Shown: positions 4,621-6,680 of the stretch, in pieces
Layout: each line of letters begins with the position of its first letter
How positions within the stretch are numbered: the stretch's first letter is position 1
Assembly: GCA_964600735.1 (NCBI GenBank)
Contig: CAZRLL010000129.1
Coordinates: forward strand, 1 to 11,204
From: an uncultured archaeon
GTDB taxonomy: Archaea > Asgardarchaeota > Heimdallarchaeia > Heimdallarchaeales > Kariarchaeaceae
Length of the DNA stretch: 11,204 nucleotides
Direction: 5' to 3'
The notes under the pieces: generated by a model
Database searches by the model: none
What the model was told of the DNA's origin: nothing
The model's input: the letters and a program-made list of their open reading frames with translations, nothing else
Program-made: the position numbers and the translations under genes

Positions 4621-5091
4621 CTATACGTCATTACTAAATTCATTTTCTCGAATTAGTGATGATGATAATAAATTTCCATACTCATCCTTTAGCCAAGGGA
4701 TCACAATTACATCAAGAGGTGACAGTCCATTTTCTTCACGCATTTGATTGATTTTATGTGCACTTTTCCTTGTCTCTTGAGAAACGACAATTACATCAGC
4801 GCGAGGATCGTTTGGAGCAGGTCCCCAATTATCATACAGTGGATCCACGTCCACCTGATCACAATATTGCGATAAGTATTCTCTCACATTTTTTGCCCGT
4901 ATTTCATAACCCTGTATAAAGTTGTTAAATTGTTTATCCTTGAAGAGTTTCTTACCTAGTTCTTCGGAAACTATACCCGCAAAAACCTCCTTGGCTGCAA
5001 ATGCTGCGGTGTGAAGTAATAGCCGATGAGCATCGTGGAGTCTATCAAAAGTTCCTCCAAGAACTGCACGGGTGTATGGTTTCTCATCCAT
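4621..5091 (-). CDS. coaD: Phosphopantetheine adenylyltransferase, archaeal/eukaryotic type
   Basis: 156 aa; nucleotidyltransferase motif AVLGGTFDRLHDAHRLLL and ADVIVVSQETRKSAHKINQMREENGLSPLDVIVIP...SSSLIR. Confidence 0.9.
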   Translation of the reverse strand: MDEKPYTRAVLGGTFDRLHDAHRLLLHTAAFAAKEVFAGIVSEELGKKLFKDKQFNNFIQGYEIRAKNVREYLSQYCDQVDVDPLYDNWGPAPNDPRADVIVVSQETRKSAHKINQMREENGLSPLDVIVIPWLKDEYGNLLSSSLIRENEFSNDV

Positions 5092-5345
5092 ATGTTAGTT
5101 GTTGTCTATGTTGAAAATATATAATATTACTTGCGTGGATTGGGTTTAAAATCAATACGGGGCACATTTATTAGTCGAGTCACTCTTCAATTAAAAATTT
5201 TTGAAATAAAATCCTATAGATTGCATTTTACAACACAATAAGGTAACAACTAATTTAAACGGGTTTTCCTGATTTTACACTGTAAGAGTCTTACCTGAAT
5301 CGACTCAACTATTTTTGAATGCTAGAAGGATCAAATGTATGATAT

Positions 5346-5417: not shown

Positions 5418-5490
5418 TATCAACAAAAGACATTCCTTATAGCGATTTACAACAATTATGGTATTTTATTGGATGATCCATAAATACAAT

Positions 5491-5500
5491 TTTTTATAAG
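5491..5500 (+). promoter_or_regulatory. TATA-like box for the 5S rRNA transcription unit
   Basis: TTTTTATAAG centred about 25-27 nt upstream of 5522, the first base of the closing stem of the permuted 5S RNA. Confidence 0.6.
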
Positions 5501-5521
5501 GATAATCGATTCATAGAATTA

Positions 5522-5671
5522 GACTCATCAACCGGATAAGTTAAGCCTCGTCCCGGATTTATTTGTACTAATCTGCGTGAGCGTTTGGGAATTTGGTCAA
5601 GCTGCGTATTATCGCGGTCATAGGGCGAGTGTGACACCGGAAAACATCCGAACTCCGATAGCTGGTGAGTC
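5522..5671 (+). rRNA. Circularly permuted 5S ribosomal RNA (3' portion encoded before 5' portion)
   Basis: Segment 5536-5605 matches the 3' half of archaeal 5S (AAGTTAAGCCTCG, TTGTACTA, GCGTGAGC, TTTGGGAA, GCTGC); segment 5614-5660 matches the 5' half (GCGGTCATAGGGCGAG, GTGACACCGG, CATCCGAACTCCGA). Helices: I 5601-5606/5613-5618 capped by UAUUAU; II 5547-5553/5623-5629 (GGGCGAG with CUCGUCC); III 5638-5641/5654-5657; V with GUGA tetraloop 5577-5580; new terminal stem 5522-5530/5663-5671. Confidence 0.9.
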
Positions 5672-5673
5672 GA

Positions 5674-5684
5674 TTTTTCTTTTT
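5674..5684 (+). terminator. T-rich archaeal-type terminator of the 5S gene
   Basis: TTTTTCTTTTT begins 3 nt after the last base of the closing stem. Confidence 0.6.
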
Positions 5685-5738
5685 CGTTATTCATTAGTTT
5701 TAGGTTACAAATATTTTTGAATTGAATTCTGAAATGAT

Positions 5739-6680
5739 TTAAAAATTAGCTATCTCAGGTAAAACCTCATCTCTTAGTGTTTCAATTGGGGTAATTTCAA
5801 AGATATTGGGAAGATTGACAATCGCATGCTCAATACCTACATCTGCTAATTCTTTTAGGTAATCAATTACATCCTGAGGAGATTGTTTATCAGGTATAAG
5901 CTCTACAGTACCAAGAGTTGTTTTTTCAATCTCATCATAATTTCTACCCAAATTCTCGCAATGATTTTTCAATACTTGTAATTTATTCAACAAGGTCTCT
6001 TTGCCTGCTCTTGAAAACAAATTACAGGTATCTGCATATTGGGCAACCATTCTTAGCGTTTTTTTCTCACCCATTCCTCCAATCATAATTTTTGGATGTG
6101 GTTTTTGTATCGAAGCTGGAGCATTATGTGTATCTTTCAATTGGTAATGTGCTCCAGTGAATGATTCAGAATCATCAGACCACATCTGTTTTGCGATCTG
6201 TATTGCCTCTTCCAACATTTCAAATCGAATCTTAACAGCTGGAAAGGGGAAACCATAAGCTTCTGCTTCTTCTTTGTACCAGGCAGCACCGATCCCAAAA
6301 TAAGCTCTCCCTTGGGATAATACATCTAGAGTTGTTGCTTGTTTGATTAAAAATGCTGGATTTCTGTATATCACACCAGTTAATAGAGTTCCTAGTTTAA
6401 CATTTTCTGTTATTCCAGCAAAAAAATTAAGCACAGAATAGCCTTCAAGCATGGGATCTGTATATTGTAGACCAAATAAATTTTGAATCTGATAATAGTG
6501 ATCCATCACCCAAAGTGAGTGAAATCCTCCATTATCAACTGTTTTTGCGATCGCTATTAAATTTTTTGTGATTTCAGAGTCCCCACCAGGAAAGGTAAAA
6601 TTTGGAATCTGTATACCAAGCTTCATCTGCTTGAATAATTCTTGAAATTTTATAAGTTTATCTGAATTCCTAGAATTCAA
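5739..6680 (-). CDS. Luciferase-like (LLM class) F420-dependent oxidoreductase
   Basis: 313 aa; MKLGIQIPNF, HSLWVMDHYYQI, VKLGTLLTGVIYRNPAFLIKQATTLDVLSQGRAYFGIGAAWYKEEAEAYGFPFP, PKIMIGGMGEKKTLRMVAQYADTCN. Confidence 0.9.
   Translation of the reverse strand: MNSRNSDKLIKFQELFKQMKLGIQIPNFTFPGGDSEITKNLIAIAKTVDNGGFHSLWVMDHYYQIQNLFGLQYTDPMLEGYSVLNFFAGITENVKLGTLLTGVIYRNPAFLIKQATTLDVLSQGRAYFGIGAAWYKEEAEAYGFPFPAVKIRFEMLEEAIQIAKQMWSDDSESFTGAHYQLKDTHNAPASIQKPHPKIMIGGMGEKKTLRMVAQYADTCNLFSRAGKETLLNKLQVLKNHCENLGRNYDEIEKTTLGTVELIPDKQSPQDVIDYLKELADVGIEHAIVNLPNIFEITPIETLRDEVLPEIANF

What the first reader, a model, noticed from the sequence alone, without database searches (positions are those of the whole stretch)
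5522..5671. Circularly permuted 5S rRNA gene in an archaeal genome
The two conserved halves of 5S rRNA are on the same strand in swapped order. The usual 3' part (GTTAAGCCTCGTCC ... TTGTACTAATCTGCGTGAGCGTTTGGGAA ... CAAGCTGC) comes first, then only 8 nt later the usual 5' part (GCGGTCATAGGGCGAG ... GTGACACCGGAAAACATCCGAACTCCG). All canonical helices can still form: helix II is 7 pairs between 5547-5553 and 5623-5629, and helix V keeps a GUGA tetraloop. The new ends lie in loop B, after the 3' strand of helix III, and are closed by a new 9-pair stem GACUCAUCA/UGGUGAGUC. Loop B therefore becomes a three-way junction. Permuted 5S rRNAs are known from some mitochondria and permuted tRNAs from some algae and archaea; I know of no described chromosomally permuted archaeal 5S gene, but could not search. 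Standard canonical 5S models may miss it or report only a fragment, so such genomes may look as if they lack 5S.
Basis: partly seen in the sequence, partly recalled or inferred. Interest (0 to 1): 0.97.

Follow-up and report, generated by a model that had tools for sequence, protein, structure and literature searches.

The report
Circularly permuted 5S rRNA gene, Asgard archaea
This Heimdall-type (Asgard) archaeon encodes its 5S ribosomal RNA with the two halves in swapped order; standard 5S models miss the gene, relatives carry the same arrangement, and I found no paper describing it.

Summary

- **Locus.** Window 5522-5671 (+) holds the 3' two-thirds of a 5S rRNA, a short capped helix I, and then the 5' third. 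A 9-bp stem pairs the new ends.
- **Rotation test.** Rfam's 5S model gives 12.5 bits, far below its 38-bit cut-off. A model built from ten real canonical archaeal 5S genes, rotated in silico at the same point, scores the locus 74.4 bits (E about 1e-16) over its full length. The same ten genes in native order give 19.8 bits.
- **Relatives.** The same permutation occurs in 13 more distinct sequences (15 loci) from Heimdallarchaeota and Wukongarchaeota contigs, at 64-116 bits. The seven of these loci put through Rfam at gathering threshold got no 5S hit.
- **Covariation.** In 12 of the natural permuted sequences, 96% of pair cells are paired. Compensatory changes occur in 23 of 33 pairs.
- **Not an artefact.** An independent assembly carries an identical unit.
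- **New features.** Helix I is capped by a UNCG tetraloop in 13 of 14 sequences. The closing stem differs in sequence between lineages but is kept. No conserved bulge-helix-bulge motif is present, so the RNA probably functions in permuted form.
- **Literature.** Authors of two closed Heimdallarchaeum genomes reported that no 5S gene could be predicted. I found no paper describing an archaeal permuted 5S.

No expression or ribosome data were available.

The parts
5490..5499 (+). A/T-rich TATA-like box (TTTTTTATAA), about 23-32 nt upstream of the first base of the closing stem
   Evidence: Read from the sequence. Relatives have an A/T box at a similar distance from their closing stems. That it acts as a promoter is inferred from general knowledge of archaeal promoters, not tested.
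5522..5530 (+). Closing (terminal) stem, 5' strand: GACUCAUCA
   Evidence: Forms 9 standard pairs with 5663-5671. Duplex energy p is about 0.018 against shuffles. Stems in the same position but with different sequences occur in relatives.
5531..5537 (+). Leader linker ACCGGAU. It repeats the helix III 5'-strand sequence ACCGGA found at 5636-5641.
   Evidence: It could pair with UCCG 5654-5657 as an alternative to helix III. Its significance is unknown.
5538..5546 (+). AAGUUAAGC: the AA bulge, the lower helix III pairs (G5540-C5635, U5541-A5634) and the 3' side of loop B
   Evidence: R1 alignment positions 1-9. The GU/AC pairs are invariant in the 12 sequences of alignment A2.
5547..5553 (+). 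Helix II, 3' strand (CUCGUCC)
   Evidence: 7 pairs with 5623-5629. In relatives, 6 of 8 helix II pairs show compensatory changes.
5554..5599 (+). Gamma domain: helix IV (weak), loop E (UGUAC / GGGAA), helix V, and loop D GUGA (5577-5580)
   Evidence: R1 alignment. Rfam RF00001 aligns this half only. In relatives, 6 of 8 pairs of the helix V stack (the 8 pairs around loop D, with a one-base bulge) covary, and 3 of 4 helix IV pairs.
5601..5618 (+). Helix I as a capped hairpin: GCUGCG (5601-5606) / CGCGGU (5613-5618), loop UAUUAU (5607-5612). The original 3' and 5' ends of 5S are joined here.
   Evidence: In 13 of 14 homologous sequences the cap is a UUCG or UGCG tetraloop on 7-8 bp. 4 of 7 pairs covary.
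5619..5622 (+). Loop A, from the CAUAG motif (its last G, 5623, is the first base of helix II)
   Evidence: Conserved motif aligned by R1.
5623..5629 (+). Helix II, 5' strand (GGGCGAG)
5630..5637 (+). 5' side of loop B and lower helix III (UGUGACAC)
   Evidence: R1 alignment.
5638..5657 (+). Helix III (CGGA 5638-5641 / UCCG 5654-5657) with loop C (AAACAUCCGAAC)
   Evidence: 4 standard pairs. All 4 pairs covary in relatives and are 100% paired.
5658..5662 (+). Trailer linker AUAGC (3 nt, AAA/AAU, or 2 nt where the stem extends by one pair, in most relatives)
5663..5671 (+). Closing stem, 3' strand: UGGUGAGUC
5672..5686 (+). T-rich tract GATTTTTCTTTTTCG, the likely archaeal terminator
   Evidence: Sequence. 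T-runs follow the closing stem in relatives. In the independent assembly L204, the first differences from the window appear only here, after the stem. The terminator function is inferred.

Best explanation
Window 5522-5671 (+) is a stand-alone gene for a circularly permuted 5S ribosomal RNA of a Heimdallarchaeia-type Asgard archaeon.

**Gene layout.** The order is: new 5' end; AAGUUAAGC and the helix II 3' strand; the helix IV / loop E / helix V / loop D domain; helix I closed into a hairpin, where the ancestral 3' and 5' ends are fused; loop A; the helix II 5' strand; the helix III / loop C hairpin; new 3' end. The break lies at the two-adenine bulge between helix III and loop B. A 9-bp terminal stem pairs the new ends, so the bulge becomes a three-way junction.

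**Shown here.**
- It is a 5S rRNA in permuted order.
- The fold is conserved, with covariation.
- It occurs widely in Heimdallarchaeota and Wukongarchaeota.
- Standard 5S models fail to detect it.

**Inferred.**
- It is transcribed from its own TATA-type promoter to the T-run as an RNA of about 150 nt.
- This RNA enters the large subunit as it is, without religation. The capped helix I and the extra terminal stem would point away from the conserved protein- and 23S-binding surfaces.
- It is the organism's only 5S.

**Likely origin.** A tandem 5S duplication followed by loss of the outer parts. This would explain the short repeats of helix III sequence left at both ends.
For: **Rotation test.**
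- R1 was built from 10 Rfam-verified canonical archaeal 5S genes, rotated at loop B with random 6-nt linkers.
- R1 scores the locus 74.4 bits, E 1.8e-16, full model.
- R2, the same genes in native order, scores 19.8 bits, E 0.06, covering only the 3' half.
- Rfam RF00001 scores 12.5 bits against a 38-bit cut-off and gives nothing at gathering threshold.

**Homologues with the same break point.**

| Loci | R1 bits |
|---|---|
| L165 | 115.8 |
| L185 | 112.8 |
| L169 | 111.8 |
| L207 / L208 | 109.9 |
| L120 | 109.4 |
| L212 | 109.3 |
| L200 | 108.8 |
| L124 | 102.6 |
| L211 | 102.5 |
| L121 | 97.9 |
| L205 / L206 | 97.4 |
| L108 | 94.1 |
| L197 | 64.1 |

**Covariation.** On 12 natural sequences, 96.2% of cells are paired. 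23 of 33 pairs change on both sides. 0 of 500 shuffles reach the observed values. Slid controls give 25-45% paired.

**Taxa.**
- The window's proteins are closest to Heimdallarchaeota / Kariarchaeaceae.
- L121 (and L108, whose 5S unit is the same type) is Wukongarchaeota.
- L124 is Heimdallarchaeota; L185, L205, L207, L211 and L212 are its syntenic relatives.

**Independent assembly.** L204 has an identical unit in the same gene neighbourhood.

**Mature-form argument.**
- Helix I is capped by UUCG or UGCG in 13 of 14 sequences.
- The closing stem is kept with five or more unrelated sequences. It starts about 25 nt after an A/T box and ends at a T-run.
- No conserved BHB motif is present.

**Literature.**
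- E. coli tolerates a 5S whose native ends are joined by a 4-nt connector (PMC7283268).
Against: - No transcript, end-mapping or ribosome data were available.
- Only this 11.2-kb contig (and 24 kb of L204) of the genome could be seen, so a canonical 5S elsewhere is not excluded for this organism.
- A Kariarchaeum MAG was reported as having a 5S gene, method not stated.
- Thermodynamic folding alone does not recover the 5S fold. The MFE is a different structure, and the z-score is only -1.29.
- The window scores lower than the other lineages (74 against 94-116 bits), and its helix IV is weak.
- The window's helix I cap is a hexaloop, not UNCG.
- The closing stem is only moderately significant in the window (p about 0.02) and not significant in L200 and L197.
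- From my own knowledge, the insertion point lies in the helix III bulge region that binds uL18 in other organisms. Steric tolerance is therefore assumed, not shown.
Confidence: 0.8

Rival explanations
1. The permuted gene is only a precursor. Leader and trailer pair, an endonuclease (EndA-type) cuts both, and RtcB joins ...helix III to AAGUUAAGC to give a circular 5S. That RNA is either used as a circle or reopened in the helix I loop to give a canonical 5S. This is the pathway used for permuted tRNA genes.
For: - The ends are paired like an archaeal processing stem.
- In the window, leader ACCGGA repeats the helix III 5' strand. Leader CGGA can pair with trailer UCCG, flanked by AAC on both strands, which gives a loosely symmetric arrangement.
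- In Heimdall type B, leader UCAGG / UCGGG can pair with trailer CCUGA.
- Archaeal 16S and 23S precursors, and permuted tRNAs, are circularised this way (PMC12918454; PMC4267664).
Against: - No strict 3-4-3 BHB sits at a conserved leader/trailer position in any lineage. Relaxed BHB-like matches are no more frequent than in flank shuffles (138 observed against 165 expected in the window).
- Worked out by hand, cuts with BHB geometry would destroy helix III in type B (UCAG facing UCAG). They appear to work in the window only because CCGG is a palindrome.
- The helix I cap is a stable UNCG tetraloop in 13 of 14 sequences. That fits a permanent structure, not a processing site.
- Reviews state that archaeal 5S is not processed through circles (PMC12918454).
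Confidence: 0.12
2. It is a 5S-derived RNA with another role, or a decaying relic of a tandem 5S duplication. The working canonical 5S gene would lie elsewhere in the genome.
For: - Only a fragment of this genome is visible.
- Tandem 5S arrays do give full-length R1 hits: L188 at 76.8 bits, L150 and L184 at 64 bits.
- A Kariarchaeum MAG was reported to contain a 5S.
Against: - Every 5S helix is maintained by compensatory changes across two Asgard classes, and all conserved loops are kept. Relics do not behave this way.
- The two halves are separated by a 4-6-nt cap on a 6-8-bp helix, not by a spacer with full helix I strands.
- The unit is 100% identical between two assemblies whose flanks differ.
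- Its position between the same genes is conserved among Heimdall relatives down to 64% MiaB identity.
- Closed Heimdallarchaeum genomes had no predictable canonical 5S.
Confidence: 0.05
3. It is an assembly or chimera artefact that joined two partial 5S copies.
For: The contig comes from a metagenome-assembled genome.
Against: The same order occurs in 16 loci from JGI, ENA and NCBI assemblies of different samples. These include an identical copy in a 24-kb contig and copies on contigs of 192-400 kb.
Confidence: 0.01

Closest known systems
Canonical archaeal 5S rRNA (Rfam RF00001)
   Same: All five helices are present. So are loop A CAUAG, loop C ..CAUCCGAAC, AAGUUAAGC, loop E GUAC/GGGAA and a GNRA-type loop D. 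Domain lengths are the same. The gene is stand-alone with its own promoter and terminator, as in some archaea.
   Different: The order is rotated. The ancestral ends are fused into a capped helix I hairpin of 6-8 bp instead of 9-10 bp. New ends lie at the helix III AA bulge and are closed by an extra 9-13-bp stem. Some Heimdall lineages add a ~21-nt leader hairpin. The locus fails the Rfam cut-off (12.5 against 38 bits).
Permuted mitochondrial 5S rRNA of brown algae and other stramenopiles (Valach et al. 2014, PMC4267664; model mtPerm-5S)
   Same: It is permuted both in the gene and, as proposed here, in the final RNA. Helix I is replaced by a hairpin. It was missed by the standard 5S model.
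   Different: In the mitochondrial case the ends sit at the loop A junction between the alpha and gamma domains, and the beta and gamma domains keep their order. Here the ends are inside the beta domain and the whole 5' third is moved behind the 3' two-thirds. This is a cellular chromosome, not an organelle. The Rfam E-value scan of the region listed only RF00001 among 5S-type families.
Circularly permuted tRNA genes (Cyanidioschyzon merolae; Thermofilum pendens, the latter from my own knowledge)
   Same: The 3' half is encoded upstream of the 5' half on one strand with a short intervening sequence, and the termini are paired.
   Different: Those precursors carry a BHB motif. They are circularised and then reopened by RNase P and tRNase Z to give a normal tRNA. 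No conserved BHB was found here, and the junction is a stable tetraloop.
Circularly permuted 23S rRNA of Pyrococcus / Thermococcus (PMC7758197; bioRxiv 10.64898/2026.03.23.713588)
   Same: An archaeal ribosomal RNA that works in a permuted form.
   Different: There the gene is colinear. The permutation arises at the RNA level by BHB circularisation plus excision of helix 98. Here the gene itself is permuted.
Engineered cp5S rRNA in E. coli (Huang et al. 2020, PMC7283268)
   Same: The native 5' and 3' ends are joined by a 4-nt connector, and the ribosomes remain functional.
   Different: The engineered RNA is opened in loop C or loop D and tethered to 23S. The natural RNA is free and opened at the helix III bulge with a new terminal stem.

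Membership tests
5S rRNA (function and fold) | Three-domain fold: helix I, helices II-III with loops B and C, helices IV-V with loops E and D, joined at loop A | tested here: met
   R1 (rotated canonical model) scores 74.4 bits over the full length. Across 12 natural permuted sequences, 96.2% of cells are paired and 23 of 33 pairs are compensatory.
5S rRNA (function and fold) | Conserved sequence motifs (CAUAG, CCGAAC, AAGUUAAGC, GUAC...GGGAA) | tested here: met
   All are present at 5619-5623, 5649-5654, 5538-5546, 5565-5568 and 5587-5591.
5S rRNA as defined by Rfam RF00001 | Colinear 5'-to-3' order with termini in helix I, meaning a score at or above the 38-bit gathering cut-off | tested here: not met
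   No hit at gathering threshold. 12.5 bits, E 7.6, in E-value mode. The native-order control model R2 gives 19.8 bits.
5S rRNA (function and fold) | Component of the large ribosomal subunit and the only 5S of the cell | not testable with these tools
   No RNA or ribosome data, and only an 11-kb contig. Indirect support: closed Heimdallarchaeum genomes had no predictable 5S (PMC8813620).
Permuted mitochondrial 5S (mtPerm-5S type) | Termini at the loop A junction, with helix I replaced by a 5' hairpin and the beta and gamma domains in native order | tested here: not met
   The termini lie between helix III and AAGUUAAGC. The Rfam E-value scan of the region listed only RF00001 among 5S-type families.
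BHB-dependent permuted genes and archaeal circularised pre-rRNAs | A bulge-helix-bulge motif (3-nt bulges, 4-bp helix) formed by leader and trailer at the ligation site | tested here: not met
   No strict BHB sits at a conserved position in 12 sequences. Relaxed matches are not enriched over shuffles. The test was a simple pattern scan of my own, not an enzyme assay.
Stand-alone archaeal RNA gene | A/T-rich TATA box about 25 nt upstream of the RNA start, and an oligo-T terminator | tested here: inconclusive
   Such elements flank the closing stem in the window and in relatives. They were read by eye and no transcription data exist.

The most novel reading that the evidence does not exclude
The permuted gene is the only 5S gene of Heimdallarchaeia and Wukongarchaeia. 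It arose once in their common ancestor, and the permuted RNA with its extra arm sits in their ribosomes.

It would then be a rare genomic change marking this clade. Eukaryotic nuclear 5S is colinear. The distribution of the permutation, especially in Hodarchaeales, would therefore give an independent, non-phylogenetic character on whether eukaryotes branch inside or outside Heimdallarchaeia.
Probability: 0.3. Interest if true: 0.95.

Novelty: new variant of a known kind. Interest (0 to 1): 0.9.

Why it matters
- 5S rRNA is among the most conserved and most easily recognised genes in cellular life. I found no report of a chromosomal, lineage-wide circular permutation of it in free-living organisms.
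- It gives a likely explanation for why 5S genes 'could not be predicted' in closed Heimdallarchaeum genomes, and probably why many Asgard MAGs are scored as lacking 5S. That affects the MIMAG 'high-quality' criteria (my own knowledge of those standards).
- It supplies a ready search model for such genes.
- It gives a natural test of how much topological freedom the 5S RNP and the central protuberance tolerate, with a new arm at the uL18-binding region.
- It offers a discrete character for the debated position of eukaryotes relative to Heimdallarchaeia.
- Cultured Hodarchaeales now exist (bioRxiv 10.1101/2025.02.26.640444), so the predictions can be tested experimentally.

Tried and rejected
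- **Synteny through the neighbouring LLM oxidoreductase.** The best Heimdall relatives (L001, L002, L014, L081, L082) have no 5S next to that gene.
- **Exact look-ups of window proteins.** Two failed. A cluster member, P0161, finally gave the syntenic contig L204.
- **The metagenome pattern.** AAGTTAAGC..GTAC..GGGA..CGAAC was too permissive at its last block. The true number of permuted genes is therefore unknown.
- **The homologue search with P0122.** It returned only the query and one relative, with no taxon names.
- **MFE folding of the locus.** It gives a non-5S structure with an unremarkable z-score, so it is not informative either way.
- **The BHB / splicing idea.** I pursued it because of the repeated ACCGGA and the AAC-CGGA / AAC-UCCG symmetry in the window. 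I rejected it as the general mechanism after comparison with the other lineages.
- **A simple longest-stem shuffle test.** It was too weak in AT-rich flanks, so I replaced it with a duplex-energy test.
- **A K-turn at the junction.** I considered this by eye; the sequences do not fit the consensus.

Full report
**1. What is in the window**

The window is a complete 11,204-bp contig of an NCBI metagenome-assembled genome. Its G+C content is 34%. Its proteins are closest to those of Candidatus Heimdallarchaeota and Kariarchaeaceae.

The 647-bp gap between a phosphopantetheine adenylyltransferase-like gene (4621-5091, -) and an F420-dependent LLM oxidoreductase (5739-6680, -) holds the feature on the + strand.

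- AAGUUAAGC lies at 5538-5546.
- The helix II 3' strand lies at 5547-5553.
- GUAC...GUGA...UGGGAA lies at 5565-5592.
- AGCUGCG ends at 5606, followed by a 6-nt loop, then CGCGGUCAUAG.
- The helix II 5' strand lies at 5623-5629.
- ACACCGGAAAACAUCCGAACUCCG ends at 5657.
- The 9-bp stem is GACUCAUCA (5522-5530) / UGGUGAGUC (5663-5671).

**2. Standard tools do not see a 5S gene**

- Rfam at gathering thresholds finds nothing in the window.
- In E-value mode, RF00001 gives 12.5 bits (cut-off 38, E 7.6). It aligns well only to the 3' half.
- ARAGORN finds no tRNA.
- MFE folding gives a non-5S structure with z = -1.29, so thermodynamics alone is uninformative.

**3. Rotation test**

The Rfam tool cannot take an edited sequence, so I did the equivalent test.

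- The metagenome scan had brought in many ordinary 5S genes. Rfam verified 13 of them, 12 of these full length.
- I took ten full-length archaeal genes and trimmed helix I to 7 bp.
- I rotated them at the point between the helix III 3' strand and AAGUUAAGC.
- I joined the old ends with random 6-nt linkers and built covariance model R1 with the rotated consensus structure.

| Model | Score on the window | E-value | Coverage |
|---|---|---|---|
| R1 (rotated order) | 74.4 bits | 1.8e-16 | 5538-5657, model 1-123 of 123 |
| R2 (same ten genes, native order) | 19.8 bits | 0.06 | 5523-5607 only |
| Rfam RF00001 | 12.5 bits | 7.6 | aligns well to the 3' half only |

The next best R1 hit in the window is 11.3 bits. 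R2 scores its own canonical members 121 bits. Rotation is therefore worth about 55 bits. The locus is a 5S rRNA in circularly permuted order.

**4. Relatives**

A degenerate pattern scan of JGI/ENA metagenome contigs was swamped by ordinary 5S genes. It still returned nine real permuted genes. Protein-guided look-ups added more in conserved gene neighbourhoods.

- There are 14 distinct sequences including the window, at 16 loci.
- The relatives score 64-116 bits with R1 but only 18-42 bits with R2.
- None of the eight relatives submitted to Rfam (seven other loci plus L204) got a 5S hit at gathering threshold.

Taxonomy by protein clusters and named homologues:

| Loci | Assignment |
|---|---|
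| L121 (L108 carries the same 5S type) | Candidatus Wukongarchaeota; the 5S sits just upstream of orc1/cdc6 in L121 |
| L124, and its syntenic relatives L185, L205, L207, L211, L212 | Candidatus Heimdallarchaeota, with MiaB-like protein identities from 89% down to 64% |

L197 (52% G+C) is unassigned.

L204 is a 24-kb contig from a different ENA assembly. It has the same gene order as the window and carries a base-for-base identical RNA unit. The first differences appear just after the closing stem. This excludes an assembly artefact.

**5. Covariation**

I aligned 12 natural permuted sequences to R1.

- 96.2% of the 396 pair cells are standard pairs.
- 23 of 33 pairs show changes on both sides.
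- None of 500 column shuffles reaches any of the five measures.
- Sliding the 3' partners by 1-3 columns drops pairing to 25-45%.
- Every helix is supported except the two-pair lower helix III, which never varies:

| Helix | Pairs with compensatory change |
|---|---|
| II | 6 of 8 |
| IV | 3 of 4 |
| V (the 8-pair stack around loop D) | 6 of 8 |
| I | 4 of 7 |
| III | 4 of 4 |

The alignment is fitted to the model, which favours the structure somewhat. The slid controls and the number of double changes make the conclusion safe.

**6. The new parts**

*(a) Helix I* is a closed hairpin of 6-8 bp. Its cap is UUCG or UGCG in 13 of 14 sequences. The window has UAUUAU.

*(b) The closing stem.* The new ends always lie between the helix III 3' strand and AAGUUAAGC, and they are paired.

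| Lineage | Closing stem |
|---|---|
| Window | GACUCAUCA / UGGUGAGUC |
| Wukong | UGCAACGCCUG / CAGGCGUUGUG |
| Heimdall type B | GCCUAGUAAGG(U) / (A)CCUUACUAGG(U) |
| L165 | UCUAAUGGUAG / UUGCCAUUAGA |
| L200, L212 | CCUAACAAA(A)GUC-type with bulges |

Duplex energies beat flank shuffles with p of 0.001-0.018 in ten sequences. They do not in L200 and L197.

*(c) Transcription signals.* An A/T box lies about 25 nt upstream of the stem. In Heimdall type B it is the conserved motif AAAGATTAAAAAA. A T-run follows the stem. This suggests that the primary transcript runs from stem to stem.

*(d) An extra hairpin.* Heimdall type B and L197 carry an extra ~21-nt hairpin in the leader. Among the type-B sequences it shows compensatory changes: GG/CC becomes AG/CU in L211, and a C-A mismatch becomes C-G in L124 and L169 (read by eye).

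**7. How it probably works**

I consider it most likely (about 0.8) that the RNA is used in the ribosome in permuted form.

- A UNCG-capped helix I is a stable terminal structure, not a processing site.
- The terminal stem plays the role helix I normally plays in tying the ends together.
- No conserved bulge-helix-bulge motif exists at the leader/trailer junction.
- The short repeats of helix III sequence in the leader do not give a consistent splice geometry. These are ACCGGA in the window and UCAGG / UCGGG in type B. Worked out by hand, BHB-type cuts would destroy helix III in type B.
- Those repeats are better explained as leftovers of a tandem duplication that created the permutation, or as alternative pairings of unknown role.
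- E. coli ribosomes work with a 5S whose native ends are joined by a 4-nt connector (PMC7283268).

The religation pathway remains a live rival (about 0.12). No RNA data were available.

**8. Comparison with what is known**

- The brown-algal mitochondrial 'permuted' 5S has its ends at loop A and keeps the beta and gamma domains in order (PMC4267664).
- Permuted tRNA genes use BHB splicing and a circular intermediate.
- The Pyrococcus 23S is permuted only at the RNA level (PMC7758197).
- Full-text searches for permuted 5S in archaea, Asgard, Heimdall, Wukong and Hodarchaeales found no description of this gene.
- Wu et al. [quoted passage not shown] A permuted gene would explain that. I could not test it because only 21 kb of one closed Heimdall genome (L209, probably one of theirs) was reachable, and it holds no 5S.
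- The literature library is incomplete, since subscription journals are missing. Novelty is therefore probable, not certain.

**9. Limits**

- I could not see the rest of this genome, transcripts or ribosomes.
- The phylogenetic spread (Hodarchaeales, Njordarchaeales, Gerdarchaeales) is unknown.
- The metagenome scan was truncated.
- R1 also scores tandem 5S arrays (L188, L150, L184), so hits need inspection.
- E-values from my models are rough because the calibration was short.

**Verdict.** This is a real, conserved, circularly permuted 5S rRNA gene shared by Heimdall- and Wukong-type Asgard archaea. It is a new variant of a known kind, and of high interest.

Noticed in passing
L085, L088, L094, L100, L110, L115, L132, L134 and others (e.g. 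L110:146-266 plus about 110 nt beyond): Many GC-rich (63-70%) soil contigs carry an archaeal-type 5S with an insertion of about 105-110 nt after GGGAAGCC. The true 3' strand of helix I (GCUGUCAGCC) lies about 110 nt further on. Rfam reports a 'full-length' hit that ends inside the insertion. This recalls the 108-nt insertion of Halococcus morrhuae 5S (my own knowledge).
   Followed up: partly
L120:701-721 and the equivalent positions in L124, L169, L185, L165, L205, L207, L211, L212: Heimdall type-B permuted 5S genes have an extra ~21-nt hairpin in the leader, between the closing stem and AAGUUAAGC. It is preceded by the conserved motif CAGAAAG and shows compensatory changes. It looks like a small expansion arm of 5S that the window's lineage and Wukongarchaeota lack.
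   Followed up: partly
window 5531-5536 and 5636-5641: ACCGGA occurs twice: once in the leader and once as the helix III 5' strand. Either copy can pair with UCCG (5654-5657). Type-B leaders have an analogous UCAGG / UCGGG complementary to trailer CCUGA. This could be a duplication relic or an alternative conformer.
   Followed up: partly
window 5504-5514: AATCGATTCAT, upstream of the predicted transcription start, is an alternative 11-bp partner (with G-U pairs) for the trailer GTGAGTCGATT. GATTCAT and GACTCAT form a near-repeat.
   Followed up: no
window 5494-5694 (-): A 66-aa ORF lies antisense over the whole RNA gene. It is probably spurious and could be annotated as a hypothetical protein.
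   Followed up: no
L121:3651-4976 (-) and 5041-5162 (-): In Wukongarchaeota the permuted 5S gene sits directly upstream of the ORC1/Cdc6 gene on the same strand.
   Followed up: no
L112:2017-2139, L182:4035-4159: These 5S-like sequences have a normal 3' half, close to that of L122, but a strongly divergent 5' half. L112 gave no Rfam 5S hit at gathering threshold. They may be pseudogenes or another unusual 5S.
   Followed up: no
L188:36-155, L150:776-961, L184:151-337: Head-to-tail 5S arrays, probably eukaryotic, give full-length hits to the rotated model (64-77 bits). They are a false-positive class for any permuted-5S search.
   Followed up: partly
L120, L124, L169, L185, L205, L207, L211, about 30-55 nt upstream of the closing stem: A conserved upstream element, (T)CTCCAATAG(T/C)AAAGATTAAAAAA, precedes the type-B genes. 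It is probably the BRE/TATA promoter.
   Followed up: no
L205:13889-17689, L212:13405-16857, L213:12561-21212: The gyrase A and/or B genes near the Heimdall 5S loci carry intein / LAGLIDADG insertions, according to precomputed Pfam hits.
   Followed up: no
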